Positions 27,843-51,632 are shown, counted from the stretch's first letter. The stretch is 64,000 bases of DNA from a virus (IMGVR_UViG_2875697941_000001), one strand, 5' to 3'. Numbers and translations: made by a program. The notes: generated by a model not told the origin, from the letters alone.

Positions 27843-28031
27843 TAAATATATTATTTTTAATCTGAAATAATTGACAACTGACAAGTGACTTCAGTCAGAA
27901 TCATCACATGCCCGGTACGGATGGATCCCTTTTCAAATATTCCATGGACGGCACAGTCTGAGTACCGGGCGCTACCTTCAGTTGTATTGCTAAGCCGCCG
28001 CTGGTGGCTTTTCTTTTTTATAAGGGGCGCT

Positions 28032-28673
28032 ATGGATAAGAAAATATGCGTTGTTTCGATGAGCGTCGGCAAACCGGCGTCAATGACTGCCGCATGGATC
28101 AACAATGAGCTGATAATGGCTGAGCGGACCAGCTACCCTGAACGCCGCCGCGATATGGAACTCCAGCTGCTGCGCGAATTGCAAGAAAAAGAGGAAAAGG
28201 GTTTTATCGTGCTGGTGGAAGAGGAAAACAGCTTTATTACGGGTCGAGTTGGCCAGCGTGTAAGGTTGCGCGATCCCTTCATGAACGGCAGGCCGGTACT
28301 AATTGAAGCAATGCAGATTTACAAGGAGCTGGAACGCCAGAAAGCGATCAAGTTACCGCGCAAAGAATCCGGCAAATACATCCTCCACCAAAGCATCTTC
28401 GATTCCGAACACGACAAAAAAGGCGATGAATTTTTCAACATCAACTGGAGCGAAATAACGACAGAGCACGTTCTGTCGTTGTTATGCTGCTTCGCAACGG
28501 AATATAACAACGTTGCAAGCGCCGACTACATCAGGGCAATGGCTGGAGAAGTTGAGGCCCGCCAGGAACCATCGTTACTAAGCCCTCTGATTAACATAAT
28601 TCGCGGAACCCAATGTCTAGCCGACAAGCGAGTTCCTCAAGGCTTACTTACCGGCAAAGAAAACTATTTATAA
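28032..28673 (+). CDS. hypothetical protein (P1 mat position)
   Basis: ATG 28032 preceded by AAGGGG; track ORF extends in-frame upstream to GTG 27885, start not resolvable by eye. Confidence 0.55.
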   Translation: MDKKICVVSMSVGKPASMTAAWINNELIMAERTSYPERRRDMELQLLRELQEKEEKGFIVLVEEENSFITGRVGQRVRLRDPFMNGRPVLIEAMQIYKELERQKAIKLPRKESGKYILHQSIFDSEHDKKGDEFFNINWSEITTEHVLSLLCCFATEYNNVASADYIRAMAGEVEARQEPSLLSPLINIIRGTQCLADKRVPQGLLTGKENYL

Positions 28674-28763
28674 TTAATTACGTCAGTAGCCAATAGAGAT
28701 TTTTGTTGTGGAACAAAAATATATATTTTACAATCTAGTAACTTTGGGTGGAGGATTATTACA

Positions 28764-29804
28764 ATGATGAATATTAAGCCGCTGAAAATTAGGAACAAGG
28801 TCATGAAGCCTCATAAAGCATTATTAAACCCTGACCTAACCGCAAGGAATGTACTTACATACAGTCATTGGGATTTTGTCGAACTCTGGTTAAAGCGAAA
28901 CGAAAAAGATGAGGCTCTTTTTTATTGGGAGCAAGCAAAAGTATTTAATCAGGCGGCCAATGGTTTACCCAACCAATCAGCCCCACTTTTGCACTATTAT
29001 TCATTCATGAATGCAGTAAAGGCGTTACTTTCATCTCGCAATATAAACTTCAAACAGCATCATGGTGTTGCTAGGGGTGAAAATACAGCCCAAATTGATA
29101 ACTTATCTGATATAAAAGTAAAAATAAAAAATGAGGGTATACTTCCGTCTTTTTCAAAATATATTGACGGCACCTCTCATGAGGGGGTGTACAATATAAA
29201 AAACCTTTTTTCTGGATTGCCATATATTCATCGTACATATTGCCTTACTTATGATGTAACTGATGATATATTTATTCCACTGATCGATGCTGAGTTCGTT
29301 TTGAATGAGTCAGACAATAGCCTGTTTTTCACTGCGATTTTATCCAAGGATTTTCGGTTCGACACAGTTTTCGACATTCTACCGCCAGCGTTCGAATTGT
29401 TTGAAAGAGAAAAGTACAAAATAAAATCAGTAGAATCATTACTTGATTTTAATGAAAATCAATCGTCCAACATGCCGCAATTAACTGAATTTCATCAAAA
29501 AATAAGAAGAGATCTTTACTATATCAATGGCGCAGAGACTCTTTGGTATCTCAAACGTAAAAACAATCAATCTGAGCATACTTCTGTTTCAATATCGCCA
29601 TTGGTTATAACCCTAGCAGCTATGCATCGATTAAGTGAGCTATGTCGGTATGACCCACTTAAGCTAAGACAGTTACTAAATGAAAAAGAAAACTGGATTA
29701 TTGCTGAATTTATTCAACAATCTCCGTCACAGTTTATAGATGCAATTTCATCTGAAATTACTGGACACCAATTTCTTATCCCAAACGTAAGGTCTGCTTC
29801 TTAA
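28764..29804 (+). CDS. uncharacterised 346-aa protein, first gene of low-GC cassette replacing res-mod
   Basis: GGAGG RBS 9 nt before ATG; strongly AT-rich codon usage unlike flanking backbone; only a weak R-x6-H (RNINFKQH) motif noted. Confidence 0.75.
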   Translation: MMNIKPLKIRNKVMKPHKALLNPDLTARNVLTYSHWDFVELWLKRNEKDEALFYWEQAKVFNQAANGLPNQSAPLLHYYSFMNAVKALLSSRNINFKQHHGVARGENTAQIDNLSDIKVKIKNEGILPSFSKYIDGTSHEGVYNIKNLFSGLPYIHRTYCLTYDVTDDIFIPLIDAEFVLNESDNSLFFTAILSKDFRFDTVFDILPPAFELFEREKYKIKSVESLLDFNENQSSNMPQLTEFHQKIRRDLYYINGAETLWYLKRKNNQSEHTSVSISPLVITLAAMHRLSELCRYDPLKLRQLLNEKENWIIAEFIQQSPSQFIDAISSEITGHQFLIPNVRSAS

Positions 29805-30313
29805 TGAATATATATATCGCATGCGCTTTAACTCATGTTCCAAGGGAAATTTTCCATGAGTACAGTAATTGGATTCACAGCCTTGCAAAAGGTCTATCTC
29901 AAAATAACAACGTAAAATATGCTTTGATAAATAGTGACCCAGAATTATCAAAGCGCCCTGAAAGTAACAAATCTAGACTTTGTTACATTTGGGACAGAGA
30001 TATGGTTGAGAAATCTGATGTAATAATTGCAGAATGTAGTTTTCCATCAACAGGGCTAGGAATAGAGTTGCAGATTGCTGAACAGAAGAACATTCCTGTA
30101 ATCATCTGTTATAAAGATTATGGGATAAATAAAACTAAAACCATTGAATACGTGAATCCAGATGAGACTACCCATAATCTACAAGTTGGCGAGGGTTTCA
30201 TTTCTCATATGGTATTAGGACTACCAAACATCCTTGATGTCATATTATGTAAAGATATTGATAACACATGCAGGAAGCTAAAAATACTGTTAGATATGAT
30301 TAACCATAATTAA
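29804..30313 (+). CDS. nucleoside 2-deoxyribosyltransferase-like (NDT/DNPH1-fold) protein, second gene of cassette
   Basis: start overlaps upstream stop (TAATG); MNIYIACAL N-terminal strand and SDVIIAECSFPSTGLGIELQIAEQKNIPVIICY resemble NDT-family catalytic region. Confidence 0.75.
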   Translation: MNIYIACALTHVPREIFHEYSNWIHSLAKGLSQNNNVKYALINSDPELSKRPESNKSRLCYIWDRDMVEKSDVIIAECSFPSTGLGIELQIAEQKNIPVIICYKDYGINKTKTIEYVNPDETTHNLQVGEGFISHMVLGLPNILDVILCKDIDNTCRKLKILLDMINHN

Positions 30314-30371
30314 AAATTAACACCCACTTAAGATGTCTAAACCAGCCCGGTATTAACCGGGCTAGACAAAC

Positions 30372-30620
30372 TTAATCAGCATTCAGGAGCAATGCATTAT
30401 CTATGATGATTTGCTCCCATTCTTCGAATGCCCGGTCGCGGACGCCCTGGGGAACGCTGTTAGTTTTGAAATCGACGACCGTACGCCATTTCCCGTCCGG
30501 GCGGTACATGCGCAGAGCTTTACTTCCCCCTTCCCTGCGCACCTCAACGTTATGCTTATCAGCAAACTCTTGTAATGCTCGTAGCGTCCCATGCTTTACT
30601 GTGTAGTATCGCTTTTTCAA
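30372..30620 (-). CDS. small hypothetical protein (P1 lxc position)
   Basis: 82-aa ORF overlapping upstream gene by 4 nt. Confidence 0.5.
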   Translation of the reverse strand: MKKRYYTVKHGTLRALQEFADKHNVEVRREGGSKALRMYRPDGKWRTVVDFKTNSVPQGVRDRAFEEWEQIIIDNALLLNAD

Positions 30621-31057
30621 GTTTTCTCTCCAGCCTGTGCCAAGGCTTCAACTTCCAAATCGTAAGACTCAAATTCATAGTCCTGGTCGTCAACTTCTTC
30701 AGGCACTGGCAGTAAATGCCAGGCTGAGTATATCTGACCATTATCAAAACGCTCCTGGCTGTAGAGCGTCGCGGCTATGAGTGTTAGAGCCGGGCGGTCA
30801 TAACGGTAAATTTTGCGAACGTCACGGTCAACGAGACGACCGAAATTACCATAACCGCGCTCCAGTAATAATTTTTTAATTTCCGGCCAGTATGGACCAT
30901 AGCTGCGGTACAGGCGGGGATTTTTCAGTAATCGCCCGCGTAGCCCTGACAGGAAGAAATCAACGTATTCGTCTTCTGTCTTTCCTAACAACGCTGTACG
31001 GAGTACCGCCTCAAGATATGTTTTATTCGGTTTTATTGTATCAGATAGTGTGGCCAT
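30617..31057 (-). CDS. hypothetical protein (P1 ulx position)
   Basis: 146-aa ORF immediately downstream of darB on same strand. Confidence 0.55.
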   Translation of the reverse strand: MATLSDTIKPNKTYLEAVLRTALLGKTEDEYVDFFLSGLRGRLLKNPRLYRSYGPYWPEIKKLLLERGYGNFGRLVDRDVRKIYRYDRPALTLIAATLYSQERFDNGQIYSAWHLLPVPEEVDDQDYEFESYDLEVEALAQAGEKT

Positions 31058-31090
31058 ATTATGCGACGCCCGGCGAACCGGGCGCTCCTG

Positions 31091-34000
31091 TTATGCGTAT
31101 TGTTGGATGACGGCCAGAACGTCCGCCACGTTGTGTTTTGTCTCGATAATCCACCAGTTACCCGGGAAATCGCTGTTCTTCGCCTTCGCTGGCAGCCAGC
31201 GAGCGCCGAATTTCGCCTTGATTGCGTCTTTCGCACGGAAAAGAACGCCTTTCATGCCTGAGGCTTCCTGAAGCCCAAATACCTCGCCAGCGGCGAATTT
31301 CGGTGCGTACATCATCTTCAGGTCGGCGGTGGATACGCGATAATTCAGACCAAGAGACTGAGCTATGCTGGTGGCATCACCCTGTATTGATGATAACTCT
31401 TCTTGTTTCTCGTTTCTGGCGGCAATTTCTTCCTCCGTGATGTTGCCAAGGGCCAGGTTTATCCGATCAGCGTCGGCCTGTTTCTCTTCATCGGTGCGCC
31501 CGGCAAGAACCGTGTTAATTCTCTGCAATATCTCCACATGATTCTTGCGCATGCTGAGCAATTCCGGCGTAACCTCGTTAAGATCCACCAGCCCAAGGAT
31601 GGCAAGGTCGGAAAACATTGATACCAGGTTGTAGGTCATGCGATAGCTGAGTTGGCCATAGGCTGATGGCAACTGCACCGCATCCATTTGATAGGCATCC
31701 ATAAATTTAGAGCCGGCGTTTACGACATCCGCAATTGCAGGTGTGATTTTCCCTGTGGTGGCGGCCTCCCTGATTGCTGTTACCCACGATTGAGTCAGTG
31801 CGGCGACTGCATGATTCAGATTGGCTTCCCGTTCTGCTGCGATGCGCGCGTTTGCTGCGTCCATTGCCTGCTTGATCTCGGCTTTATTGCTGTAAATGCC
31901 AATGGTGCCAAACTGTGCTGTGGTGATCTCATAATCTGACGCCCGGAACTCATGGGTACCGAAAATGGCATTGGTGACCTCAAGTTCAGAATCCCCGTTA
32001 CGAGTAGCCCCCTGGCTTGTTTTCTCCGGCATTTTTGCGATCGCATCCGCTATTTTCTCCTGAATTGCTTCAGGGGATAGCGTATCTCCGTATGACGCGA
32101 TTACATCGCCATAATTGGAGCCAAACAATTCAACCAGGAATGTTTCTGCCGAACGGATCTGGCGGTTATTCCCTTCCGACATCATACCAAGCACCCATTT
32201 TGCAATTGACGACTTCAGCGCGCCGTCACGGCGATCCGGGTAAACCGCATGCTTCAGTGGGTCCGTATAGGTACCAACAAAATCAATGCTATAGCCTGAC
32301 TCTGTAGTCTGAACGCCGTATGAGTCAGTGATTTTGATCATGCCGCGCTGCTGGAAACGGTAGAAATCGTCACAGGAAATGATGTCGTTAATCCCGGCGA
32401 TGGAGACGCCACCACTGATTTTCTGCATAACAGCATCTTCATCGGGAGTTACATCCACCTGTTTATCCAGCGTCTTCACATCCCAGTTACCCGATTTGGT
32501 GCCTCTTAAGGTAAAGATGATCTCCACGTCTGCGCGCTGGCTGTCGAAGTCCAGCGACTTAATGCGAACGATATCACCGGCACAATCGTAGTATTGGCCT
32601 ACACGCCATGAGCGATCGCCGATAACAAGGAACTCATTCGCATGGTTAACCAGATCAGGATCAACATCCAGAATGCCTTTATTTATTGCATCCTCCACCA
32701 GCGGGCGCAGGCGTTTGATATCCGTCGCGGCCTTCTGAGTACGGTTCAATAATTTCTCATAGCGGGAGATGGCCTGAGAGATATTAGCCTTGCGCTGAAT
32801 GGCGCTTTTCAACGACGCGCGATACTGTGCTAACAACATACGGTCTGTGTGATGGACACTCCCCCAGCGGGCCTTCCAGTCTGCGTTATCCGCTGCCTTG
32901 GCCATTGCCGCCTGTTTGAATTTAGCTACCTCGGCGGTGGTCTTTTCAAGTTCCGCTTTGCTTCGCTCTAATTCAGCGGTAAGTACCTCCACATCCTCGC
33001 CAGCTGCGTGCTGCGCCTTGATGTAGTTCTGAAGGTCGATAGTAGCCTGTTCTTTCTGGCGAGCGCGTTTCGCAGCTTTCGCCTTATCCATTTGAACCTG
33101 CATCATTGCCAGACGTTCGCCGTCATCCTTCGCGGTATACATCTGCATTTCGATCATGTCATTGGCGTCGGCGTTCTCCATTTCTGACTTATCTGAACGG
33201 AGGATATCGGAGATCCAGCCTGCTTTACGCTTCAGCGTCTTCAGTCGGTATTCATCGAAAGACCCCTTGCCGCAGTAGTAGTGAACGCGAACGCTTGCAC
33301 GGTTGGAACCAACTCGGGCACCGCGACCGTTACGCTGTGCGATACTGGCTGGTGTCCACGGCAACGTCAGGTGGTGGATATCCGTCGTTCCTCGATGCAG
33401 GTTGATACCCACCTCTGCCTTTTTGTTGCAGATGATGATCGGAGTCCGGCCCTCCTGGAAGTCGGCTGCAATCTTTTCCAGACCGCCCAACGACATTTCA
33501 TTTTGCTGCGCGATATAGGCGTCATACAGAGCCATTTGCTCGTTGTATTTCGCTATCTGTGCATCTGTTGGTTCATCCGGTAGCTCTTTCGGCGGTTTAA
33601 CCGCTTTCAGTTTCTTACCGGTTTTACCTGCCTCGGCAACCGTCTGAGCATTCAGGATCCCCACCTTTGAAGGTTCAAGGTTTAGAGCATTGCAGATAAT
33701 GCGCTTGAGCTTCTGGTGCTGCGTTTTTTCATCGGTGAAGATGATTTGCTTACCTTCCGGGAAAAACTCCTTCAGCGTGGCGATCAGCTTCGCGTATTTG
33801 GGCGTAACGGGGTGAGTTACGGTCTGTTCGTCAATGCCAAACCTGGCCAGGCGCTTATTCACTTCCTGCTCGAACGCTTCCGGAACCTGCAACTGAATAA
33901 ACTCGCCCTTATCTATCAGGGAGTATTGCGATTGCTGCGTGATTGAATCATCACTGTCGTCGTCTTCGCTGGTGGCTTGTTTAGGCAAACTGTCCGCCAG

Positions 34001-37000
34001 CTGCTGCACCGCATCGGCGTACTCCGGCAGGAAACGATAGGTGATCCGGCGATAGTACAGGTCCATGTCAGTACATACGCGGTCCATATCCCTGATTATT
34101 GAGAAGATCGGACGGGCTTTCTCGTGCTCAATCACGCCGTCTTCATTGACCGAGGTCGTTACGCCATTGTTGGCTTTGGCCGCCGCTTCCGCCTGCTGAC
34201 GCAATTCTTCATACGCCGCCAGTTGTTCTTCAGTAAGTGGTGCATCCTGCTGGTGTTCGTCCAGCTCCGGGATCTCCACGGTATCCTTAACGTCTTCCGC
34301 CGTTTTAAGCGTTACCCAGCGATGGAATATACCGCGCAGCGCATCAAGGTTTTCAAAGCCCATCAGCGCCATTTTTTCTTCAACTTCACCGCTAATTTTC
34401 TGTACCGTTTCCAGCCTGGTCTTGCCGAAGAATTTAACGAAGTCATCAGGACCGTAGATCCCCATGTTCTGCCAGTATTCCTTCGGCAGAACATGAGAAA
34501 GCATGTTGTATGCATCGATCGGGGTGTTAACGACTGGCGTTGCAGTCAGGAGAACCGGCCCGCGCCCGCCATTCTTTTTCATCAGGTACGCGTTTTTAAT
34601 TGCCATATCTCGCGCCGATTGCGCCACCGCGCTGGTGGGCAGATAGGCCAGTTGTGACGCTTCGCGACCATTTTTATAGCTATTGCGGTAGTTGTGACCT
34701 TCGTCAGCGATCACACTATCGAAGCCCATATCCTCAAAGTACGGATACTTCTCTGCTTTTTCGGTGCCGGTATCTGAATACTCCGACAATACCCGGCGAC
34801 GCGCGGCCTCTTTGCGGTGGGAGTCGGAGTCCATTGCGCTGGCTACGCGTCCGGCGGCAACGAAGTCATAAAGCATATCCTGTGCATGCTCATCTACGGT
34901 GTCATCACGTAGCGGAATGCGGGCGTATTGTTCTTTGGTAAACACGACTGCACGGTAATTTGAGTGCGGGATCGCGTTCATCCGCGCCGTGATAGTGGCT
35001 TCATCTGCCAGTTTTAGGGCATCGCGCATAACTGGAGTGCCATCAGTACCAAGAACAGGTTTACCGTTCTCATCGAGCACCGGCACCTGGCGAATCTGAT
35101 CGCCATCCATCAGCACATCAAGACCGACGAACAGGTAGTTACTGAATGCCTCTTCACTCAGGAATTCTTTTGCTTCGTAATACCAGTTTTCCAGCACTGA
35201 TTTAGGCACTACATACGCAGTACGGGTGGAGCGACCGTTCTCATAGTTGAACGCCTCAAGCGCCAGCGCGGTCGTGGTTTTACCCAGCCCGGTGCCGAAG
35301 CCCAGGATGCCGCGCCCATCTTCGGACAGTCGGCGCACCTCGCTATTCTGGTAATCAAATGGCTGGCGCTTACCGCTTAATCCCTTCAACCCAAGCGGAT
35401 CGCCAGAGTGTTCATACGGGATATTGCTATTGAACACATCGTTGTATTTGGCAACCAGCTCATCGTAGCGATCGTGCGTCTTGATCCACTTATTGAACTG
35501 GTCCTCAAGCAGTGCCATCTGCTCGCGGTAGCCGTTCGCCGTCGCGCTATCTTTGCCACCGATACGCGCACCATTGAGATACTTTTCCAGCTGTGCCGGG
35601 AACCCGGTCGCGTTTTCACCTGATTTACGGTCCCACTCGTAGCGGATCTCGCCTGTTTCTTTATCCTTACGCTGGACGACACCGTATCGGTGCCCGACGA
35701 ACAGACCATCACCACCGTGATAGGTGTCAGAAACCATTTCGTCGCCTTCCAGCTGCACTGACTGCACATAGCGCAGATCCGGATAGCCGTTTTCCTGCAA
35801 AAATTCCAGAATGACGGAACGGTCGAACCAACGGCTATTGAGCTTAAACCGGATATTCTCTGCTGGCGTCTTGATGCGCTTCTCTTCGATCGCTGCCAGC
35901 TGATTAAGGACGTTGTTCTTTACTGGACCGTCGGGGAGCGTGGCGAGGAATTCCTGTTTTGGAGCCACTATCTCGTTAATGTCGCCGCTGGTGGCGCGGG
36001 CGAACGGAACAATCCCGCCATACGGTGAAACCGCAATGCCAGGGGTGCTGGCCAATAAATTAAGCAACTCGTCATCACTGGCTGGCAGTTCGCCGGTAAA
36101 CGCAAGGCGGAAATCATCGAGCTGGATTGGATCGCGAGTGAGATCACTGTAGAGATAACGCAGGGTGTCCTGATAGCTGGTAGAGTCATAACTGGCGCTG
36201 GAATCATGCGTAACCAGTTTTCCTGTCAGCTCGTCAGAAATAGTGCCATCCAGCTTAATTGCACCACGGAAAGCAAACCAGGCGCGCGCACCGCTCCCCG
36301 ATAATTTCGCTATCGGACCGCGACCGGGGTTACCAAAACGGTCAATCTCTGCCTGCAAACGGGATACCAGAGAAAGGCGCTGCTGTTCGATTTGTTCAGC
36401 ACTATGCCCGGCGGCCTTCATATCCTGATATTCAATTAACATCCGGCCAATCATCGCTCCACGATACAAGCGTTCACGGTATTTTTCAGGCTGGCTGTTA
36501 ATCCAGTCCACCAGCTGCACCATATCGTCGCTGATTGATGTGGTGTACTTATCGCGGACATTTGCCATCTGGGTAAATGTCATACCGAGACGGCCTTCTG
36601 TTGTAGTCAGGTTACGCTGAAGAGCCTCCCAGCTATCCGCGCCATAACTGGCAACCTCAATCTTCAGCTCCTTCCCGGCATCAGCTTCAATCCAGCGACC
36701 ACCAGCATATTTTTGCCATACGCCATTAATCAGGCGCATTTCCCCTTCATCAACAACATCTGCGGTCGGTGACGGTTCAGCCATATCGAGCAAAGACCAG
36801 TCGATACGGCTTTCGAAACGATGAATCAGCTTCGCTTTAAGAGCCTGGTTATCAATCTGACCGTCGGCACGAACCTCAATACGCCCCTGGAAGCCCTTTT
36901 CCTGGGTGCCATGAACAAACCGGCGGCCATCCTTTTCAAACCACTTGCCAGAAATAAACGTTGGCCAAAGCACATTTGCCGATTCAAGAGTGCTCTCATC

Positions 37001-37858
37001 CACCAGGGGGATTTTCTCAGCCATCTCCGCCGGATGTTTGCGCATCAGCACCACGTCAACGACCGTACTGGTCCCGTTTGCGTCAAAAGTACCGGTAGGC
37101 AAGCGGTGGGCACCAAGAAATTCAGCTTTACGGGATAGGCGCAGGCGTAACCGCTTCATGTTTGAACCTGAAACAATGGACGGCGGCACAATCACGCACA
37201 TGAATCCGCCAGGCTTTATCTTGTCCAACATGCGGAGCATGAAGTAAGACCCCATGTCCGTTTCTTCTGCGTAAGGCTTATCGATGTTGCGTGTGTTATC
37301 ACGACCGCCGAACGGAACGTTACCCACAACATGGTCGAATGAATCGTTAGGCGTGCTTACAGCCAGTTGTTCGAACGGGGAAATTTGTACGCTGTCTTCC
37401 GGATGTAACAGCTGGTTTATACGACCGGAAACACTGCTGATCTCAGTCGCGGTCATCACCGTACCAACCGGTTTTGTCTCATTAAAAACGCCGGTTCCCG
37501 CCGATGGTTCCAGAGTGTTACCTACGTCCGCGCCGTAGAGCTTCATGATCTCCCAGACACCTTCAGCGATCGGCTTTGGTGTGTAATATTCGGAGACGGA
37601 CCCGCCAATGCCGCCTTCACCGGTGTACCCAGCCAGGATCTGGCGCTGTTCATCTGTCAGTGTCGCGCCGTCCACCAGCGAATTAAGCAAATCTATCGCC
37701 TTCTGATTCGCCTCACGGCGCAGTCGGTCATAGCTTTTGCCTTCCACCTTTTCCACGCCGTATTTAATCGGCGCTCGGTGAGATGTTATTGCCCTAATGT
37801 ATTTCAATATTTCGCTGACACTTGAACAGCGAAACACTCCCATAGATAGCTTGTTCAT
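31091..37858 (-). CDS. darB: DarB-like giant N6-adenine methyltransferase / SF2 helicase fusion (anti-restriction)
   Basis: 2255 aa; N-terminal SAM motif LEPSAGTGVF and catalytic VGNVPFGG; helicase motif I GFGTGLGKTTTA and motif II DEGHNYRN; size matches P1 DarB. Confidence 0.9.
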   Translation of the reverse strand: MNKLSMGVFRCSSVSEILKYIRAITSHRAPIKYGVEKVEGKSYDRLRREANQKAIDLLNSLVDGATLTDEQRQILAGYTGEGGIGGSVSEYYTPKPIAEGVWEIMKLYGADVGNTLEPSAGTGVFNETKPVGTVMTATEISSVSGRINQLLHPEDSVQISPFEQLAVSTPNDSFDHVVGNVPFGGRDNTRNIDKPYAEETDMGSYFMLRMLDKIKPGGFMCVIVPPSIVSGSNMKRLRLRLSRKAEFLGAHRLPTGTFDANGTSTVVDVVLMRKHPAEMAEKIPLVDESTLESANVLWPTFISGKWFEKDGRRFVHGTQEKGFQGRIEVRADGQIDNQALKAKLIHRFESRIDWSLLDMAEPSPTADVVDEGEMRLINGVWQKYAGGRWIEADAGKELKIEVASYGADSWEALQRNLTTTEGRLGMTFTQMANVRDKYTTSISDDMVQLVDWINSQPEKYRERLYRGAMIGRMLIEYQDMKAAGHSAEQIEQQRLSLVSRLQAEIDRFGNPGRGPIAKLSGSGARAWFAFRGAIKLDGTISDELTGKLVTHDSSASYDSTSYQDTLRYLYSDLTRDPIQLDDFRLAFTGELPASDDELLNLLASTPGIAVSPYGGIVPFARATSGDINEIVAPKQEFLATLPDGPVKNNVLNQLAAIEEKRIKTPAENIRFKLNSRWFDRSVILEFLQENGYPDLRYVQSVQLEGDEMVSDTYHGGDGLFVGHRYGVVQRKDKETGEIRYEWDRKSGENATGFPAQLEKYLNGARIGGKDSATANGYREQMALLEDQFNKWIKTHDRYDELVAKYNDVFNSNIPYEHSGDPLGLKGLSGKRQPFDYQNSEVRRLSEDGRGILGFGTGLGKTTTALALEAFNYENGRSTRTAYVVPKSVLENWYYEAKEFLSEEAFSNYLFVGLDVLMDGDQIRQVPVLDENGKPVLGTDGTPVMRDALKLADEATITARMNAIPHSNYRAVVFTKEQYARIPLRDDTVDEHAQDMLYDFVAAGRVASAMDSDSHRKEAARRRVLSEYSDTGTEKAEKYPYFEDMGFDSVIADEGHNYRNSYKNGREASQLAYLPTSAVAQSARDMAIKNAYLMKKNGGRGPVLLTATPVVNTPIDAYNMLSHVLPKEYWQNMGIYGPDDFVKFFGKTRLETVQKISGEVEEKMALMGFENLDALRGIFHRWVTLKTAEDVKDTVEIPELDEHQQDAPLTEEQLAAYEELRQQAEAAAKANNGVTTSVNEDGVIEHEKARPIFSIIRDMDRVCTDMDLYYRRITYRFLPEYADAVQQLADSLPKQATSEDDDSDDSITQQSQYSLIDKGEFIQLQVPEAFEQEVNKRLARFGIDEQTVTHPVTPKYAKLIATLKEFFPEGKQIIFTDEKTQHQKLKRIICNALNLEPSKVGILNAQTVAEAGKTGKKLKAVKPPKELPDEPTDAQIAKYNEQMALYDAYIAQQNEMSLGGLEKIAADFQEGRTPIIICNKKAEVGINLHRGTTDIHHLTLPWTPASIAQRNGRGARVGSNRASVRVHYYCGKGSFDEYRLKTLKRKAGWISDILRSDKSEMENADANDMIEMQMYTAKDDGERLAMMQVQMDKAKAAKRARQKEQATIDLQNYIKAQHAAGEDVEVLTAELERSKAELEKTTAEVAKFKQAAMAKAADNADWKARWGSVHHTDRMLLAQYRASLKSAIQRKANISQAISRYEKLLNRTQKAATDIKRLRPLVEDAINKGILDVDPDLVNHANEFLVIGDRSWRVGQYYDCAGDIVRIKSLDFDSQRADVEIIFTLRGTKSGNWDVKTLDKQVDVTPDEDAVMQKISGGVSIAGINDIISCDDFYRFQQRGMIKITDSYGVQTTESGYSIDFVGTYTDPLKHAVYPDRRDGALKSSIAKWVLGMMSEGNNRQIRSAETFLVELFGSNYGDVIASYGDTLSPEAIQEKIADAIAKMPEKTSQGATRNGDSELEVTNAIFGTHEFRASDYEITTAQFGTIGIYSNKAEIKQAMDAANARIAAEREANLNHAVAALTQSWVTAIREAATTGKITPAIADVVNAGSKFMDAYQMDAVQLPSAYGQLSYRMTYNLVSMFSDLAILGLVDLNEVTPELLSMRKNHVEILQRINTVLAGRTDEEKQADADRINLALGNITEEEIAARNEKQEELSSIQGDATSIAQSLGLNYRVSTADLKMMYAPKFAAGEVFGLQEASGMKGVLFRAKDAIKAKFGARWLPAKAKNSDFPGNWWIIETKHNVADVLAVIQQYA

Positions 37859-37925
37859 TGGTAATCCTTAACAAGTGACTAGTGTTAAATTTCCGTTCAA
37901 ACACGATACGAATTATTCTAATTAA

Positions 37926-40656
<2,731 letters not shown>

Positions 40657-44668: not shown

Positions 44669-44694
44669 ATCCCGCCGATTGGCGGGATTTCTTC
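44669..44694. terminator. bidirectional intrinsic terminator
   Basis: ATCCCGCC-GATT-GGCGGGAT hairpin followed by TTCTTC; on minus strand followed by TTTGTTGTTT. Confidence 0.6.
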
Positions 44695-45001
44695 AATATA
44701 CGATCTGGTCTGCATGATCACCAAAATCATCGTCGTCGTCCTCATCGCCACCATCTACTGCTGGCCAATCAACAAACCAGCCAGCGTAAAGATGCAGCGT
44801 TCGGAGAACATCACTTGCGGGAGCATCAAGGGTGTTAACGAATCCCATATAGCTATTGGGATTTGCCCCAGCTATGGCTTCAGCGATCATGTCCTCGGTA
44901 ATGTCACCGGAGATAATGCTTAAACGCCCGGAAACTTCTTCATTATCATCAAATTCGATAATGGCATCTCCGCCTAATGGCGCTGCGATTTTAATCTGCA
45001 T
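44693..45001 (-). CDS. hypothetical acidic protein
   Basis: 102-aa ORF with poly-Asp C-terminus, last gene of minus-strand dar-type operon. Confidence 0.45.
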   Translation of the reverse strand: MQIKIAAPLGGDAIIEFDDNEEVSGRLSIISGDITEDMIAEAIAGANPNSYMGFVNTLDAPASDVLRTLHLYAGWFVDWPAVDGGDEDDDDDFGDHADQIVY

Positions 45002-47978
45002 TATTTAGCTCCTTTGCCACACCTAATAACAGTTCCAGCAATCCGTCACCATTCATCAGTGATGCGGCAGCGGCCTCTTTGTCATGATACAACTGAAGAG
45101 CCATAGAGAATACTTCCGTTGCTGACGTTTTGGAAATAGTCGGTGATTTCTGCCGAATTTTCCCGGTGTTACTTACTGAGGCTGGCGGGTATACCTTCGC
45201 CATATAAATATTACTCAATCGAGATCTGAAGCACCATTCAGGCTTGCCACGCCCACCGATATTAACGAAAGATGGCTTATCCCCTTCAACATTGGCCTTC
45301 AGGAATGACCGGGCTTTCTCTAACAAACCAGGGTTACTGTACTCAAGATGATGACCCAGCTCGTGCCACAGTGCACTTGCATTTTCATCGTTCAAATTGA
45401 CAGCAACAACACCATTAAGATTTGCATATGCCCTTCCCTGGTGGTGAACCACCTTTGATAAGGTCGATATTTTCCCGCCGGTCAGGCGATAAATATCAGC
45501 AAGTTCCTTGCGCAGGTCTATCCCACCACTCTGTCCAGCGCGGGCTTCTTCCACTTCTTCCGTGATAAAAGAGTCGGCCCACTCAAGAGCTTTTTCTTCA
45601 GATACGGATGAGTTGGCTATCGCACTATTCATGGCAGATAACACTTTCTCGTGGACCGAACCCATACTTCGCTGATTCATTTGCCAGCGTGTCTGCGGGT
45701 TATATGAGAATCGCTTAAGTAGTTGGTCAAGATGCTCAAGTTCTTCTTCGCTGACATACTTTTTAGCCTCACCAATAATGCCGGGGAGAATATTGCCGTT
45801 AGGATTAAACGCTCGCGAAAGGAAGAGTTTCAGCGCCCCCATGCCCTCCGATGCTTCAATATCACCAATAACACGGTTAACAATGGCCGCACTCTTCGGA
45901 TTAGCATCCGCCAACGCTCTGGCTACGATTTGCAGGGACGATACGACCTCACGCTGCATATCAGTCCTGATCTCATCAATAAACTCTGGCGTTATGCCGT
46001 GCTCTTTAAGGATATCCCTGCCTTCCGCCGTTACCCCATCGATATCACCGACATGTTTATTAACCTGACTTTGCAATGCCTTAAATGCCTTCAGAATTCC
46101 ACGGGCATCATCAGCTTTACTAACGGCCTTCCTGAATGCTGGCAAGAAGTCAGAGTTAACCTCATTTTGTTGATCGGCCCACTGAATGGAGGCTTCTTTC
46201 ATCTCGTCCAGAGTCAGATCACCCAACGCGGTATGGTCTGTGAATATGAGCGACAACCTCTGAACCATTTCTGCCAATGGTGATGCCGAATGCGCCGCGC
46301 TAAGGAATGCTTTCACCCTGGTTGGGCGAATGGAAAACCAGTCAATAGCTGGTGGCATATCTCCGTTTTTTATCGCCTGCGCTATCTCGTCAAAGCCATC
46401 GCGCCCAAGGGAGGATGCGTGATTTAACAAGCCGCGAAGTAACGAATTGCTGATACCGAATAATCGGCACCATTTTTTCACGTCGGCAACAGGCATTCGA
46501 ACAAAATGCGCAAGCACTTGTACAAGCTGTTCATCCTGGGGATCTGTGCGGGAAAGCAGCCTGATCAGATGAATAATGTCTTTGATGCCGGATGCCCGAT
46601 GTAATAGCAAACTGGTATACGGAGCAACACCGTTGTAACTACCGCCGGAAACGGACTCGAAAAGACCGCCGGATATCCCTTGCATGCCTTCGTTTTCCAG
46701 TTCCTGAGACACCTGGCGAAGGATATCCTGTAACGACACATCACCACCGCCAAACATATCCCCCAGCGCCTGGCCCTGGTGCTGTAACTCATCATTGATA
46801 CGTTGAGCCATCAATTTAAAGGCGGTGGCCATACGCTTCGCGCTACGGTTATTCGCGACGATGAACAACGCGAGCGCTTTCACTTCCGGGGCTGTTTCGC
46901 TGAACATATCCCCCTGAGCAATAACATCGATAATATGTTGGTCTGACTCCTTCGATTGCCTTACCAGGTCTACCGCATCTTTCAATGCCGCCAGCGCCTT
47001 TTTATCGAGACTATCCGCTGTCTCAATACCATCAACAATAGTTGTCACAGCCTGCTTGTGCGCTTCTCCTGATAAAGCCTGCATCTGGACAAAATCATTG
47101 GCTGCCGCATTAAGCGCCGTCAGAACATTACGCATATCCGGATCAGGTTCTTCTGCAACCATCCTTACCAGGCGCGCATCCTTATATGCCTTGGCAAAGA
47201 TCGCGTTTTGTATACGGTCTACAAGTTGCCGTGTTGGTCGCCCATCTTCCGTTACAAGGCCAGCAGCCTGTGTGGCACCAACTTGCGTCATGAATCCGCG
47301 AATAAACGCGTCATTACTGCGGCTAAGCAGATCTCCGCTTTCTGATGGGTTAAACAGCGTCATCATCGCCGGAGTTATGCTGTCAGCATCAACAAAAGCC
47401 TTTTCACTGGCTGCCATTTCCTGAAGATCAGAAATATTTGAGTCCTTGGCAAACTGAACGCGGTCAACCTTAGTTAACCGGCGGCGCACCAGTACCGGAG
47501 CCGCCATTGATTCAACCTTTTCAGGTCGTATGCCGAATTCGGTCGCATGATCAATCAGGTACTCACGATACCGATCCGCATTGCCGTCCTGATAGGCTTT
47601 GATGATCCCCATGGTCCGTCCATTACCTGACTCAACGGCATTGTCCTCACCAATTATCGGCGCGCCATGGCTGGATAAACCGGAATCGGTAAGCTGGGCA
47701 GGACGCAAATCCTTGGATATCTGGTTGACCTGAAGAAGACTGGATGCGCGGGTCCGGTCGCGCGGCTGAAGTTCCTGGGGATAGTCAGGGTTAATTTTCC
47801 CGTCCAGAGTATTGGATACCAAAAGAGCTGAGGCATCGACGATATCAAACGCTGTTTTTACCTCGTCTCCCTTCGCTGTCACCACATACGAAACCCGCCC
47901 GTAATTGGGCAGGTTTTTTAGCAGCTCGATCAGCGTTTCTATGCTGGTGGCCATTACCACCTGATCGCTTAAGCTCAT
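44991..47978 (-). CDS. large virion-associated protein (P1 ddrB position)
   Basis: 995-aa ORF in operon with darA-like genes; C-terminal HExxH-like WHELGHHLEY motif. Confidence 0.65.
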   Translation of the reverse strand: MSLSDQVVMATSIETLIELLKNLPNYGRVSYVVTAKGDEVKTAFDIVDASALLVSNTLDGKINPDYPQELQPRDRTRASSLLQVNQISKDLRPAQLTDSGLSSHGAPIIGEDNAVESGNGRTMGIIKAYQDGNADRYREYLIDHATEFGIRPEKVESMAAPVLVRRRLTKVDRVQFAKDSNISDLQEMAASEKAFVDADSITPAMMTLFNPSESGDLLSRSNDAFIRGFMTQVGATQAAGLVTEDGRPTRQLVDRIQNAIFAKAYKDARLVRMVAEEPDPDMRNVLTALNAAANDFVQMQALSGEAHKQAVTTIVDGIETADSLDKKALAALKDAVDLVRQSKESDQHIIDVIAQGDMFSETAPEVKALALFIVANNRSAKRMATAFKLMAQRINDELQHQGQALGDMFGGGDVSLQDILRQVSQELENEGMQGISGGLFESVSGGSYNGVAPYTSLLLHRASGIKDIIHLIRLLSRTDPQDEQLVQVLAHFVRMPVADVKKWCRLFGISNSLLRGLLNHASSLGRDGFDEIAQAIKNGDMPPAIDWFSIRPTRVKAFLSAAHSASPLAEMVQRLSLIFTDHTALGDLTLDEMKEASIQWADQQNEVNSDFLPAFRKAVSKADDARGILKAFKALQSQVNKHVGDIDGVTAEGRDILKEHGITPEFIDEIRTDMQREVVSSLQIVARALADANPKSAAIVNRVIGDIEASEGMGALKLFLSRAFNPNGNILPGIIGEAKKYVSEEELEHLDQLLKRFSYNPQTRWQMNQRSMGSVHEKVLSAMNSAIANSSVSEEKALEWADSFITEEVEEARAGQSGGIDLRKELADIYRLTGGKISTLSKVVHHQGRAYANLNGVVAVNLNDENASALWHELGHHLEYSNPGLLEKARSFLKANVEGDKPSFVNIGGRGKPEWCFRSRLSNIYMAKVYPPASVSNTGKIRQKSPTISKTSATEVFSMALQLYHDKEAAAASLMNGDGLLELLLGVAKELNNAD

Positions 47979-47990
47979 CCCTGTTACGCC

Positions 47991-48356
47991 TTACTCTGCC
48001 TCTTTAATGTTGGCGGCTATCCATGCCGCCGTGTGCTGTTTAACCTGGTCCAGATCGATGTATGTGCCAACATATTGACTCAAGTCCTGCAACGTACCGA
48101 TAAATGCATCGGTGCTCTGATCGACGAATTTATCAGCCAGGAAATCAGCAACCAGTTTTGGCACACCATCATGTACCGAAGGTTGTTTTTCCTCGCCACT
48201 ACTGCCGCCGGACACACCGTACCCCATCTGTTGCATGATCTGGTCAATTTCATCGCTGATATCCAGCAACTCCATGCCACTCGCGGTAGCCGCTTTGGAC
48301 ATCAGAGCATCCAACTTATCGCTGAGATCCATTAACTCAATAGCTGATAGTGTCAT
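47991..48356 (-). CDS. small acidic protein (P1 ddrA position)
   Basis: 121-aa ORF, start overlaps upstream gene stop. Confidence 0.5.
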   Translation of the reverse strand: MTLSAIELMDLSDKLDALMSKAATASGMELLDISDEIDQIMQQMGYGVSGGSSGEEKQPSVHDGVPKLVADFLADKFVDQSTDAFIGTLQDLSQYVGTYIDLDQVKQHTAAWIAANIKEAE

Positions 48357-50273: not shown

Positions 50274-50885
50274 TTAATTTCCTGCTTTCAGTTGCTTAAG
50301 ACGACGTTTGAGTTCGCCATTCCGTGCCTTTTCGTTATTGAGTCGGCCCGTCTCCTTATCCAGCTTCGCCCGCAAATCAGTGATCTGCTGTTGATTGAAA
50401 GACACCGAATTCTGCGCGGACTTATAAGCGGCAACCACCTGAGCATTCCGCTGTTTTGCTTCTTGCAGGCGCTGAAAGTTGGATTTAACTGCCGGTTTCT
50501 TGTCTACCGGATTGGCAACACGCTTCGCTTTGGCGATCAGTGATTTCTGGAATTTTGCGGAGTTTTTGCGGGCCGCCTGTCCCATGACGGTACCAAGCGT
50601 CTTGATATCCGGCGACTGAGCGTTAGGAATAGCTTTTCCATTCAGTTTCACAGACGATATATCGCCAGTATCGTTTACCTGTATGGCAAGAATTTGTCCG
50701 TCGTTAAGAACCAGCTTTGCGGTTTTAACTTTAACGCCATCTTTCGTTGTTGCGCGGTTGCTGGAGTCAACCTCAATTACCGTAACACCGGTTTTATTGA
50801 TCGCCGCGATAAGGGATTTCAGCCCCTTTTCATTAACCTGGTCAAAATCGACCGTTGCATACTTATTTTTCGTCATCTGACACAT
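50274..50885 (-). CDS. Hdf-like protein (first gene of darA-type operon)
   Basis: 203-aa ORF directly upstream of DarA-like gene; basic C-terminal coiled coil. Confidence 0.55.
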   Translation of the reverse strand: MCQMTKNKYATVDFDQVNEKGLKSLIAAINKTGVTVIEVDSSNRATTKDGVKVKTAKLVLNDGQILAIQVNDTGDISSVKLNGKAIPNAQSPDIKTLGTVMGQAARKNSAKFQKSLIAKAKRVANPVDKKPAVKSNFQRLQEAKQRNAQVVAAYKSAQNSVSFNQQQITDLRAKLDKETGRLNNEKARNGELKRRLKQLKAGN

Positions 50886-51306
50886 CCTGTGCGAGATTTA
50901 TTACGTAACTTCTGCGGATTTGCTGAGTAACAGGGAAAATCCGATACAACGGGTTAATGAACGAGTCGCCATGCGTAACCATGATGTTGAAATGCCACAG
51001 TCGCTCTCCTTTACCCATATATTCAGTGGGTATGTACAACCATTCACTGTTTTCGCCCTGTTCAGCCGACGTCAGACAACGTTGTTCACCTTCAATCACT
51101 GTCGTCGGCTTCTGAACATCGCGGATCCAATATCTGACCGTTGCGCCGCGCAAAAACGGGAATTTAGACCGGTACTTGAACGGCACCCGGATGAAACCCG
51201 GTTTAATTTCCACATCACCAAGTTCTAAATGCGTGATGTCCTTGCGTTTTAGCAAATAGCGATCGGCTAAGGCTAACGCAAGAACGCATACACCCCAGCC
51301 AATCAT
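50863..51306 (-). CDS. hypothetical protein (lyd-region)
   Basis: 147-aa ORF overlapping neighbours on both sides. Confidence 0.5.
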   Translation of the reverse strand: MIGWGVCVLALALADRYLLKRKDITHLELGDVEIKPGFIRVPFKYRSKFPFLRGATVRYWIRDVQKPTTVIEGEQRCLTSAEQGENSEWLYIPTEYMGKGERLWHFNIMVTHGDSFINPLYRIFPVTQQIRRSYVINLAQDVSDDEK

Positions 51307-51632
51307 TTCCCGCCTCCCTTTTTCACCAAACTTGTAAGAACATTCAGAATGCTATCGATATTCACTCGTTTCATCCCTGAAATCACCTCATGACCGTTAT
51401 TGCTGGCTATCGTTACCATTAAGTACGTAATTGATAACTCCCAGCCCTCGTGTTGCCCCAATAGGTACGCCACCGCGCCAGCTGTCACTGCAACAAAGAT
51501 CTCCGTAACCAATCCCAACAAATTGCCAGACTGGCGACCGTCTCGGACATCCATCAGGAACGTGCCTATCCCACCAATTACTGAAAGCAGGAGCGCAATA
51601 GCAACTGGAGCTAATTCCTGTGTGTCAAGCAC
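51303..51632 (-). CDS. small membrane protein, holin-like
   Basis: 109 aa, two to three hydrophobic helices; paralogous to 51700-51981. Confidence 0.5.
   Translation of the reverse strand: MLDTQELAPVAIALLLSVIGGIGTFLMDVRDGRQSGNLLGLVTEIFVAVTAGAVAYLLGQHEGWELSITYLMVTIASNNGHEVISGMKRVNIDSILNVLTSLVKKGGGK

What the first reader, a model, noticed from the sequence alone, without database searches (positions are those of the whole stretch)
31091..37858. Giant DarB-type methyltransferase-helicase retained while the element's own R-M genes are absent
The 2255-aa ORF combines an N6-adenine methyltransferase domain (NVPFGG) with an SF2 helicase (GFGTGLGKTT, DEGHNYRN), as in P1 DarB, which is packaged and protects incoming DNA from type I restriction. 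This copy has the same size as P1 DarB, and the dar-type operon (44693-50885) is also present. Together with the replacement of res-mod this shows an element keeping offence against host restriction while swapping its own defence.
Basis: established knowledge. Interest (0 to 1): 0.35.

Follow-up and report, generated by a model that had tools for sequence, protein, structure and literature searches.

The report
P1 darB antirestriction gene, ordinary copy
The giant gene is an intact, near-identical copy of the well-known phage P1 darB anti-restriction gene in a common E. coli P1-like phage-plasmid, so it is ordinary; the only mildly new item is the uncharacterised two-gene cassette that occupies P1's restriction-modification slot.

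Summary
Observation confirmed. The 2255-aa ORF at 31091-37858 (minus strand) is darB of a P1-like (Punavirus) phage-plasmid. It matches P1 DarB at 2231/2255 residues with no gaps, and dN/dS is 0.10. Every methyltransferase and helicase motif, and the N-terminal capsid-targeting residues, are unchanged. All five partner Dar genes (ulx, ddrB, ddrA, darA, hdf) are intact in P1 order.

P1's EcoP1I res-mod is indeed missing. A 1.7-kb, 35% GC cassette sits exactly between mat and lxc. It encodes a YaaC-family protein and a DNPH1/nucleoside-deoxyribosyltransferase-fold protein.

This is not a special event:
- The mat-lxc slot is a cargo hotspot: EcoP1I in P1, empty in RCS47, a RelA/SpoT gene (probably CapRelSJ46) in SJ46.
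- The YaaC cassette is found in 77 plasmid records, and EcoP1I-type res-mod is no commoner.
- The best match is E. coli plasmid pYLMB49b.

"Swapping its own defence" is plausible but unproven, because the cassette is in no defence catalogue I could search. DarB's own mechanism remains undefined in the literature.

Verdict: already known, low interest. The cassette is a modest lead.

The parts
31091..37858 (-). darB: 2255-aa virion-packaged antirestriction protein (N-terminal capsid-targeting sequence, N6-adenine MTase, SNF2/SF2 helicase, uncharacterised C-terminal third)
   Evidence: ORF. 98.4-98.6% nt identity to P1 darB. 2231/2255 aa identical with no gaps. dN/dS 0.096. phrog_1685 matched full length.
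37769..37858 (-). codons 1-30 of darB: capsid-targeting sequence
   Evidence: Residues 1-60 are identical to P1. The first 30 residues suffice to target a reporter to P1 capsids (PMC9024508).
36974..37606 (-). darB MTase domain (about aa 85-295), with motif I EPSAGTG and motif IV NVPFGG
   Evidence: Pfam N6_Mtase and Eco57I. Motif positions. One substitution in the domain relative to P1 (H287D), outside the motifs.
34529..35362 (-). darB helicase N-lobe (about aa 833-1110): motif I GTGLGKT, motif II DEGH, motif III TATP
   Evidence: Pfam SNF2-rel_dom and ResIII. Motifs. No substitutions relative to P1 in this stretch.
32900..33496 (-). darB helicase C-lobe (about aa 1455-1653), with motif VI QRNGRGAR
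   Evidence: Pfam Helicase_C. Domain-level DrmD and DpdE hits. Motif.
30617..31057 (-). ulx: Dar component needed for DarB function and packaging
   Evidence: 144/146 aa identical to P1 Ulx. phrog_1629 'Ulx-like anti-restriction'. Role from PMC9024508 and PMC12810830.
30372..30620 (-). lxc (C1 modulator): right-hand boundary gene of the cargo slot
   Evidence: 82/82 aa identical to P1 Lxc.
37859..37934 (.). darB-prt divergent intergenic region holding LPpro and the predicted PdarB
   Evidence: Differs from P1 by a 1-nt insertion and three substitutions. The LPpro -22 and -10 boxes are unchanged.
44693..45001 (-). hxr (last gene of the dar operon)
   Evidence: 99/102 aa identical to P1.
44991..47978 (-). 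ddrB: Dar component that aids DarB incorporation
   Evidence: 978/995 aa identical. phrog_2299 matched full length.
47991..48356 (-). ddrA: Dar component
   Evidence: 115/121 aa identical. phrog_1855 'DdrA-like anti-restriction'.
48353..50272 (-). darA: internal head protein, required for packaging of all other Dar proteins
   Evidence: 624/639 aa identical. phrog_1926.
50274..50885 (-). hdf: head-size and Dar-incorporation factor
   Evidence: 201/203 aa identical. phrog_1620 'Hdf-like antirestriction'.
50863..51632 (-). lydB and lydA: first genes of the dar late operon
   Evidence: 144/147 and 109/109 aa identical.
51661..51679 (-). late promoter LPdar (position transferred from P1 31212-31230)
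   Evidence: The 67-nt region upstream of lydA is identical to P1. P1 annotation.
28674..30371 (+). foreign cassette (35% GC) occupying P1's res-mod slot between mat and lxc
   Evidence: No P1 match. GC content. Junctions lie at the mat stop codon and just beyond the lxc stop codon, and the cassette has its own terminator hairpin.
28764..29804 (+). YaaC-family protein, 346 aa
   Evidence: Pfam PF14175, E 6e-46. AlphaFold pLDDT 92.8 with no significant PDB match.
29804..30313 (+). 169-aa protein with DNPH1/nucleoside 2-deoxyribosyltransferase fold (predicted N-glycosidase); its start codon overlaps the YaaC stop codon
   Evidence: PF05014, E 1.8e-4, below the gathering score. The family profile hits DNPH1/Rcl at E 2e-5. 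pLDDT 96.9. Foldseek matches DNPH1, NDT and CMP N-glycosidase with probability 1.0. G84, G86 and E88 are invariant in 56 homologues.
27921..28673 (+). mat: left-hand boundary gene of the cargo slot
   Evidence: 236/250 aa identical to P1 Mat.

Best explanation
The ORF is the darB gene of a P1-like (Punavirus) phage-plasmid of E. coli. The element is nearly identical to plasmid pYLMB49b.

Shown in P1, and transferred here by 99% identity:
- DarB is made late in infection.
- Its first 30 residues direct it into the procapsid.
- It is loaded last, after Hdf and DarA, then DdrA and DdrB, and together with Ulx, at roughly 40 copies per head.
- It is ejected with the DNA and protects that DNA in cis against EcoK- and EcoB-type type I restriction.

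Inferred:
- The SNF2-type motor moves the EcoKI/TaqI-like adenine methyltransferase along the entering duplex.
- It either methylates the DNA or occludes it before host HsdR can act.
- The biochemical mechanism has not been defined experimentally.

The missing res-mod reflects a polymorphic cargo slot between the convergent genes mat and lxc. In this lineage the slot holds a YaaC plus DNPH1-fold cassette, which is probably, but not demonstrably, a defence or abortive-infection module.
For: Identity:
- 98.4-98.6% nt identity over all 6768 bases to P1 darB.
- 2231/2255 aa identical with no gaps.
- dN/dS 0.096, with the 24 substitutions all outside the catalytic motifs.
- Pfam MTase, SNF2 and Helicase_C domains.
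- phrog_1685 matched full length, and 'DarB-like antirestriction' phrog_10089 also matched.

Context:
- The window is collinear with P1 except for three substitutions and the tail-fibre variable segment.
- All six Dar genes are intact with P1 lengths.
- LPdar is identical to P1.
- The window carries 4 EcoKI, 9 EcoBI and 5 EcoAI sites, so the element is a type I substrate.

P1 biology:
- Capsid-targeting sequence, packaging order and EcoB/EcoK specificity: PMC9024508 and PMC12810830.
- Cis action and the MTase-helicase dyad model: PMC5512222.

Hotspot:
- Searches show four different contents of the same slot.
Against: Nothing contradicts the identification.

The mechanism is a different matter:
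- PMC11109961 states that the Dar mechanism 'has not been defined'.
- That paper shows that plasmid-borne darB DNA alleviates EcoKI restriction without any DarB protein, through Chi and EcoKI sites, RecBCD/RecA and ClpXP. Earlier plasmid-based assays are therefore confounded.
- MTase motif IV is NVPF rather than the canonical NPPF/Y, and no methylation by DarB has been shown.
- I have no evidence that this particular prophage is inducible. About 45% of P1-like plasmid records lack a full-length darB, so the gene is dispensable for plasmid life.
Confidence: 0.95

Rival explanations
1. DarB protects without methylating. It would act as a DNA-bound translocase or roadblock that stalls or displaces type I enzymes, or it would provoke host ClpXP-dependent restriction alleviation. 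Under this reading the MTase domain is a DNA- or SAM-binding module rather than an active enzyme.
For: The mechanism is 'not defined', and darB DNA alone triggers ClpXP-dependent alleviation on plasmids (PMC11109961). darB is unusually Chi-rich: 9 sites here and 11 in P1, against about 1.6 expected for the whole 64-kb window. Motif IV is the non-canonical NVPF.
Against: SAM-binding motif I and motif IV are strictly conserved between P1 and this copy and lie under strong purifying selection. The MTase-SNF2 dyad is conserved across many polyvalent proteins (PMC5512222). Protection acts in cis on any DNA packaged in P1 heads, which a diffusible alleviation signal would not explain.
Confidence: 0.3
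2. The gene is a functionless relic in a domesticated plasmid that no longer makes virions.
For: Many P1-like plasmids have truncated darB: 365 of 801 matching records cover less than 80% of the gene. A sister plasmid with identical darB (NZ_CP023896.1) has lost darA through the tail-fibre genes. darB is annotated as split ORFs in SJ46 and 673R5.
Against: This copy is a single uninterrupted 2255-codon ORF with dN/dS 0.096. All partner Dar genes, portal, protease, lysis, tail and pac genes in the window are intact and collinear with P1.
Confidence: 0.05
3. The ORF is a defence enzyme, a fused type ISP/IIG-like or DISARM/Dpd-like methylase-helicase, and not an anti-defence protein.
For: There are partial PADLOC and NCBIfam hits to DrmD, ZorD, DpdE, PglX and type I/II MTases.
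Against: Those hits cover single domains and lie far below the family cut-offs, for example DrmD at 45 bits against a cut-off of 610. No nuclease domain was detected. The protein is 99% identical to a protein shown genetically to be antirestriction and virion-borne.
Confidence: 0.01

Closest known systems
Phage P1 DarB (YP_006479.1) and the P1 Dar antirestriction system (Hdf, DarA, DdrA, DdrB, Ulx, DarB)
   Same: Same length, gapless alignment at 98.9% aa identity, identical N-terminal targeting residues and identical catalytic motifs. Same neighbours (ulx and lxc downstream, prt and pro divergent upstream) and the same dar operon, with an identical late promoter.
   Different: 24 conservative or scattered substitutions. 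Two of P1's 11 Chi sites in the gene are lost. A 1-nt insertion and three substitutions lie in the darB-prt intergenic region.
E. coli P1-like plasmids such as pYLMB49b (NZ_CP073955.1) and NZ_CP060916.1
   Same: 100% and 99.7% identity over the 23 kb from the YaaC cassette through darB, yjjJ and the dar operon. Both window ends match pYLMB49b exactly.
   Different: The window is about 2.2 kb shorter than the corresponding arc of pYLMB49b, so one indel exists somewhere between them. I did not locate it.
DarB-like MTase-SNF2 'polyvalent proteins' of phages and conjugative elements (Iyer et al. 2017, PMC5512222)
   Same: An N-terminal LPD-type region followed by an EcoKI/TaqI-like adenine MTase and a SWI2/SNF2 helicase dyad, delivered with the DNA.
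   Different: This ORF is the archetype itself, not a divergent member.
Other cargo of the mat-lxc slot: EcoP1I (P1) and the RelA/SpoT-family gene of phage SJ46 (probably CapRelSJ46)
   Same: The same insertion slot between convergent mat and lxc, and a compact cargo with its own terminator.
   Different: Here the cargo is a YaaC-family protein plus a DNPH1-fold protein, with no similarity to either of the others and no demonstrated function.
NDT-like (N-glycosidase) effectors of retron defence systems, and DNPH1/Rcl dNMP N-hydrolases
   Same: The Rossmann-like NDT/DNPH1 fold with the G-x-G-x-E catalytic glutamate conserved.
   Different: There is no reverse transcriptase or ncRNA partner. The partner is a YaaC-family protein, and sequence identity to DNPH1 is only about 15-18%.

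Membership tests
P1 DarB / Dar antirestriction system | Full-length collinear homology to P1 DarB (2255 aa) | tested here: met
   2231/2255 identical with no gaps. phrog_1685 matched over positions 1-2255.
P1 DarB / Dar antirestriction system | N-terminal capsid-targeting sequence (first 30 residues) | tested here: met
   Residues 1-60 are identical to P1. The function of this sequence in P1 comes from PMC9024508.
P1 DarB / Dar antirestriction system | N6-adenine MTase domain with SAM motif I and catalytic motif IV | tested here: met
   Pfam N6_Mtase and Eco57I above the gathering scores. EPSAGTG and NVPFGG are present and unchanged.
P1 DarB / Dar antirestriction system | SF2/SNF2 helicase with motifs I, II, III and VI | tested here: met
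   Pfam SNF2-rel_dom, ResIII and Helicase_C. GTGLGKT, DEGH, TATP and QRNGRGAR are present.
P1 DarB / Dar antirestriction system | Partner genes ulx, ddrB, ddrA, darA and hdf present and intact, with the late promoter | tested here: met
   All have P1 lengths, 95-99% aa identity and no internal stops. PHROG families match. LPdar is identical.
P1 DarB / Dar antirestriction system | Packaging into virions and protection against EcoK/EcoB restriction | not testable with these tools
   This needs phage induction, virion proteomics and efficiency-of-plating assays.
P1 DarB / Dar antirestriction system | DNA methyltransferase and ATP-dependent translocase activity | not testable with these tools
   Neither activity has been shown even for P1 DarB. 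The mechanism is 'not defined' (PMC11109961).
Punavirus (P1-like) phage-plasmid | Collinear P1 backbone: lox-cre, c1 immunity, pacAB, phd-doc, portal, tail and lysis genes | tested here: met
   blastn blocks at 96-99% identity cover about 53 of the 64 kb in P1 order.
Type III R-M EcoP1I (res-mod) as the element's own defence | res and mod genes between mat and lxc | tested here: not met
   P1 3469-9749 has no counterpart. It is replaced by window 28674-30371.
Any R-M system elsewhere on the element | Restriction endonuclease plus a cognate MTase | tested here: inconclusive
   None of the three non-P1 segments encodes R-M, and the rest of the window is the P1 backbone. In pYLMB49b, the 28 kb outside the window lists only the orphan Dam-family dmt, but PLSDB gene tables are incomplete.
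Recognised anti-phage defence system (for the YaaC + NDT-like cassette) | Match to a catalogued defence family | tested here: not met
   No PADLOC v2, NCBIfam or PHROG hit for either protein. No relevant paper was found.
Recognised anti-phage defence system (for the YaaC + NDT-like cassette) | Conserved operon located in defence islands or mobile-element hotspots | tested here: met
   The pair is adjacent on the same strand in 40 of 75 assessable genome loci across many phyla. Neighbours are AAA_15/UvrD, PycTM, BrxR/DpdD and an integrase. Unpaired YaaC genes lie next to HsdS, Mrr, Shedu SduA, a kinase and TnsA. The same slot in SJ46 holds a RelA/SpoT gene, probably CapRelSJ46.
Recognised anti-phage defence system (for the YaaC + NDT-like cassette) | Protection against phage infection | not testable with these tools
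   This needs cloning and a phage challenge.
DNPH1 / nucleoside 2-deoxyribosyltransferase superfamily (169-aa protein) | NDT fold with a catalytic glutamate after the G-x-G turn | tested here: met
   pLDDT 96.9. Foldseek probability 1.0 to DNPH1, NDT and BcmB. The profile hits Rcl/DNPH1 at E 2e-5. G84, G86 and E88 are invariant. The Pfam score, 22.1 bits, is below the gathering score of 28.8.

The most novel reading that the evidence does not exclude
The YaaC-family plus DNPH1-fold gene pair at 28764-30313 is an undescribed two-gene anti-phage (abortive-infection or nucleotide-depleting) system. P1-like phage-plasmids would carry it in the same mat-lxc hotspot that holds EcoP1I in P1 and probably CapRelSJ46 in SJ46. 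The N-glycosidase would hydrolyse dNMPs, modified dNMPs (for example 5-hydroxymethyl pyrimidines) or NAD+, under the control of the YaaC partner.
Probability: 0.3. Interest if true: 0.55.

Novelty: already known. Interest (0 to 1): 0.1.

Why it matters
It matters little in itself, because this is the archetypal P1 darB in one of hundreds of sequenced E. coli P1-like plasmids.

Two points have some use:
- The data place the loss of res-mod in context. The mat-lxc interval is a cargo hotspot with at least four states, one of which is probably the experimentally proven CapRelSJ46. That makes P1-like plasmids a convenient natural library for finding defence genes.
- The hotspot here holds a phylogenetically widespread YaaC plus DNPH1-fold pair that is absent from the defence catalogues I could query. 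It is a cheap candidate for a phage-challenge experiment.

DarB's biochemical mechanism also remains open. This copy adds natural-variant information: 24 tolerated substitutions, none of them in a motif.

Tried and rejected
1. I tested whether the non-P1 segment 13734-17595 hides an R-M system, which would falsify 'own R-M absent'. It does not. It holds an IS1 fragment, a 618-aa acyltransferase-3 protein and an IS3-family fragment.
2. I took NZ_CP023896.1 (100% identical darB) to be the source. That is rejected, because it lacks the yjjJ gene and everything from darA to the tail fibre. pYLMB49b fits better, but the corresponding arc is 2.2 kb longer than the window.
3. I asked whether DarB could be a defence helicase-methylase (DrmD, ZorD, DpdE or PglX hits). 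That is rejected, because the hits are single-domain matches far below the cut-offs.
4. I looked for a named defence system matching the YaaC/NDT pair. PADLOC, NCBIfam and PHROGs gave nothing. Literature searches for YaaC, PF14175, deoxyribosyltransferase plus defence, and DNPH1 plus phage gave nothing specific.
5. The fold search for the YaaC-like model gave no significant PDB relative. Only sub-threshold HEPN hints appeared (2hsb and 1wol, probability about 0.1). Some JGI homologues are labelled UPF0332. I do not claim it is a HEPN protein.
6. I looked for attachment sites or direct repeats at the cassette junctions. None is evident. Each cargo simply abuts the 3' ends of mat and lxc and has its own terminator hairpin. 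Exchange by homologous recombination in the flanks is the simplest reading.
7. I looked for a conserved alternative partner downstream of the 35 unpaired YaaC homologues. There is none; the downstream ORFs form no clusters.

Full report
**Observation**

The window carries a single uninterrupted ORF of 2255 codons at 31091-37858 on the minus strand.
- NVPFGG at aa 180-185.
- GFGTGLGKTT around aa 853-862.
- DEGHNYRN at aa 1052-1059.

I also found MTase motif I (EPSAGTG, 117-123), helicase motif III (TATP, 1105-1108) and motif VI (QRNGRGAR, 1508-1515). Pfam gives N6_Mtase, Eco57I-type MTase, SNF2-related domain, ResIII and Helicase_C, each above its gathering score.

**Identity**

The DNA is 98.4-98.6% identical over its whole length to darB of phage P1, and 97.8-98.5% identical to darB of SJ46, RCS47, P7 and other punaviruses.

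At the protein level:
- 2231 of 2255 residues are identical to P1 DarB, with no gap.
- Nei-Gojobori dN/dS against P1 is 0.096 (80 synonymous against 27 non-synonymous changes).
- None of the 24 amino-acid substitutions touches a catalytic motif.
- The first 60 residues are identical. These include the 30-residue capsid-targeting sequence that is sufficient to load a reporter into P1 heads (PMC9024508).

**Context**

A blastn map shows the window is a P1-like phage-plasmid collinear with P1:

| Window | P1 | Content |
|---|---|---|
| 1-13733 | 70233-83965 | P1 backbone |
| 17596-25215 | 87182-94800 | P1 backbone |
| 25216-28673 | 1-3468 | lox, cra, cre, c8, ref, mat |
| 30372-43160 | 9750-22532 | lxc, ulx, darB, prt, pro, lysis genes, ssb, isaA |
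| 44695-52313 | 24246-31876 | hxr, ddrB, ddrA, darA, hdf, lydB, lydA, lydC, cin |
| 55687-63601 | 36394-44308 | P1 backbone |

Each gene has exactly the P1 length and is 95-99% identical. The promoter region LPdar is identical to P1.

Ulx is the sixth Dar component (PMC12810830). All Dar proteins hit their PHROG families.

The window contains 4 EcoKI, 9 EcoBI and 5 EcoAI sites. The element is therefore a substrate for the enzymes that Dar counters.

**The missing res-mod**

P1 3469-9749 (res, and mod interrupted by IS5) has no counterpart. It is replaced by window 28674-30371, a 1.7-kb segment of 35% GC in a 47.8% GC window. The segment encodes two proteins:
- A 346-aa YaaC-family protein (PF14175, E 6e-46).
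- A 169-aa protein with a weak Nuc_deoxyrib_tr match. Its start codon overlaps the YaaC stop codon.

I checked whether R-M genes hide elsewhere:
- The other two non-P1 segments are 13734-17595 (IS fragments plus an acyltransferase-3 gene) and 43161-44694 (a YjjJ HipA-family kinase with an HTH domain, NF007297 E 4e-160). Neither is R-M.
- The closest complete record, E. coli plasmid pYLMB49b (NZ_CP073955.1), is 100% identical over the 23 kb from the cassette to the dar operon, and both window ends match it exactly.
- The 28 kb of that plasmid lying outside the window lists only the orphan Dam-family dmt, as in P1.

'Own R-M absent' is therefore supported, with the caveat that PLSDB gene tables are incomplete.

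**Is the replacement special?**

It is not. The interval between the convergent genes mat and lxc is a cargo hotspot with at least four states:
- EcoP1I in P1.
- Empty in RCS47, where 39 bp separate mat from lxc.
- A RelA/SpoT-family gene in SJ46 and vB_EcoM-673R5. Phage SJ46 is the source of the experimentally validated CapRelSJ46 defence (PMC9712102). That the slot gene is CapRelSJ46 is my inference from the annotation.
- The YaaC cassette here.

Counts in PLSDB:

| Query | Records matched | Detail |
|---|---|---|
| mat/lxc flanks with YaaC cassette | 701 | 77 carry the full cassette |
| EcoP1I-type res-mod | 108 | about 66 are the E. coli/Salmonella type at 90% identity or more |
| darB | 801 | 436 cover at least 80% of the gene |

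At least 13 plasmids share the whole cassette-darB-yjjJ-dar arrangement at 98-100% identity. The junctions show no attachment sites. Each cargo abuts the 3' ends of the two genes and brings its own terminator hairpin. Published surveys already report that P1-like phage-plasmids frequently exchange defence systems, R-M in particular (PMC10879196).

**How DarB works**

Shown for P1 and transferable by near-identity:
- Late expression.
- N-terminal targeting into the procapsid.
- Ordered loading after Hdf and DarA, then DdrA and DdrB, together with Ulx.
- About 40 copies per head.
- Co-ejection with the DNA, and protection in cis against EcoB and EcoK.

Inferred: the SNF2 motor carries the EcoKI/TaqI-like methylase along the incoming duplex (PMC5512222).

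Not shown: any methylation or translocation. A 2024 study states that the mechanism is undefined. It also demonstrates that plasmid-borne darB DNA alone alleviates EcoKI restriction through Chi and EcoKI sites, RecBCD/RecA and ClpXP (PMC11109961).

I confirmed that paper's count of 11 Chi sites in P1 darB. This copy has 9. The window as a whole has 40 Chi sites against 1.6 expected, and none lies in the three foreign segments. A non-methylating roadblock or alleviation mechanism is therefore a live rival, which I put at about 0.3.

**The cassette (side finding, bearing on 'swapping its own defence')**

The 169-aa protein:
- It belongs to a well-conserved family with 48-70% identity among 56 homologues from several phyla. 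G84, G86 and E88 are invariant.
- The family profile hits DNPH1/Rcl dNMP N-hydrolases (E 2e-5).
- The AlphaFold model (pLDDT 96.9) matches DNPH1, nucleoside 2-deoxyribosyltransferases and CMP N-glycosidase with Foldseek probability 1.0.

The YaaC-like protein:
- It models confidently (pLDDT 92.8).
- It has no significant PDB relative.

The pairing and neighbourhoods:
- The pair is adjacent, with the same overlapping stop and start codons, in Bradyrhizobium, in Chryseobacterium-like contigs and in an E. coli chromosome.
- The neighbours there are AAA_15/UvrD genes, PycTM, and BrxR, DpdD and an integrase.
- In a scan of GTDB species genomes, 40 of 75 assessable YaaC loci have the NDT-like gene directly downstream.
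- Unpaired, more distant YaaC genes lie next to HsdS, Mrr, Shedu SduA, a protein kinase or TnsA.

Neither protein matches PADLOC v2, NCBIfam or PHROGs, and I found no paper describing the pair. NDT-like N-glycosidases are known effectors in retron defence systems (abstracts). A defence role is thus plausible by guilt by association, but it is unproven.

**Verdict**

The gene is the already-known P1 darB in an ordinary, widely sequenced E. coli phage-plasmid lineage. The 'offence kept, defence swapped' narrative is reasonable, but it describes a common polymorphism rather than a notable event. It also assumes an unproven function for the replacement cassette. Novelty: already known. Interest: 0.1. 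The most novel reading not excluded is that the YaaC plus DNPH1-fold pair is an undescribed defence system (probability about 0.3, interest if true about 0.55).

Noticed in passing
window 28674-30371 (YaaC-like 28764-29804 +; NDT/DNPH1-fold 29804-30313 +): A low-GC (35%) two-gene cassette fills P1's res-mod slot. The pair is conserved as an overlapping operon across many bacterial phyla (40 of 75 loci) and sits in defence-island contexts. It is absent from PADLOC, NCBIfam and PHROGs. The effector has a confident DNPH1-like N-glycosidase fold with an invariant catalytic glutamate, and the YaaC partner has no PDB relative. It is a candidate undescribed defence module.
   Followed up: partly
window 43161-44694 (ORF 43297-44661 +): A 454-aa YjjJ-type HipA-family kinase with an N-terminal HTH domain (NF007297, E 4e-160) replaces P1's IS1 and isaB between isaA and hxr. 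In phage 673R5 the same interval holds dGTPase-like genes, so this looks like a second cargo hotspot flanking the dar operon. 29 plasmid records share the junction.
   Followed up: partly
window 13734-17595 (ORF 14805-16661 +): A 40% GC segment with an IS1 fragment, a 618-aa acyltransferase-3 protein and an IS3-family transposase fragment replaces P1 pap-pmgT-pmgU-pmgV-upfM-upfN-upfO-hot and part of lxr. The long C-terminal extension and a possible O-antigen or surface-glycan acetylation role (lysogenic conversion or superinfection exclusion) are my reading. The P1 annotation notes that hsd loci abut this same region in other plasmids.
   Followed up: no
whole window; darB 31091-37858: There are 40 Chi sites (GCTGGTGG) against 1.6 expected. 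None lies in the three foreign segments and none lies beyond 48771. darB alone has 9, against 11 in P1, with two lost by point mutation. This is relevant to the reported DNA-triggered restriction alleviation by darB fragments.
   Followed up: partly
window 52314-55686 (within ORF 52827-57221, minus strand, 1464 aa): The tail-fibre variable (C-segment) region is only 74-76% similar to P1 over short stretches. The S-like ORF is 1464 aa, against 988 aa in P1, which suggests a different host-range module.
   Followed up: no
related records: NZ_CP023896.1 (L003/L004), SJ46 (L012), vB_EcoM-673R5 (L010): darB is often not intact in relatives. Only 436 of 801 matching plasmid records cover at least 80% of it. 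It is annotated as 2 ORFs in SJ46 and 4 ORFs in 673R5. NZ_CP023896.1 keeps an identical darB but has lost darA through the tail-fibre genes, so its DarB could not be packaged. I did not check whether the split ORFs are real frameshifts or sequencing errors.
   Followed up: no
window 27921-28673 (mat) and 25216-28673: The lox-cre-ref-mat block is noticeably more diverged from P1 (96.3% nt; Mat 236/250 aa) than the adjacent darB block (98.4%). This is consistent with recombination breakpoints near the cargo slot.
   Followed up: no
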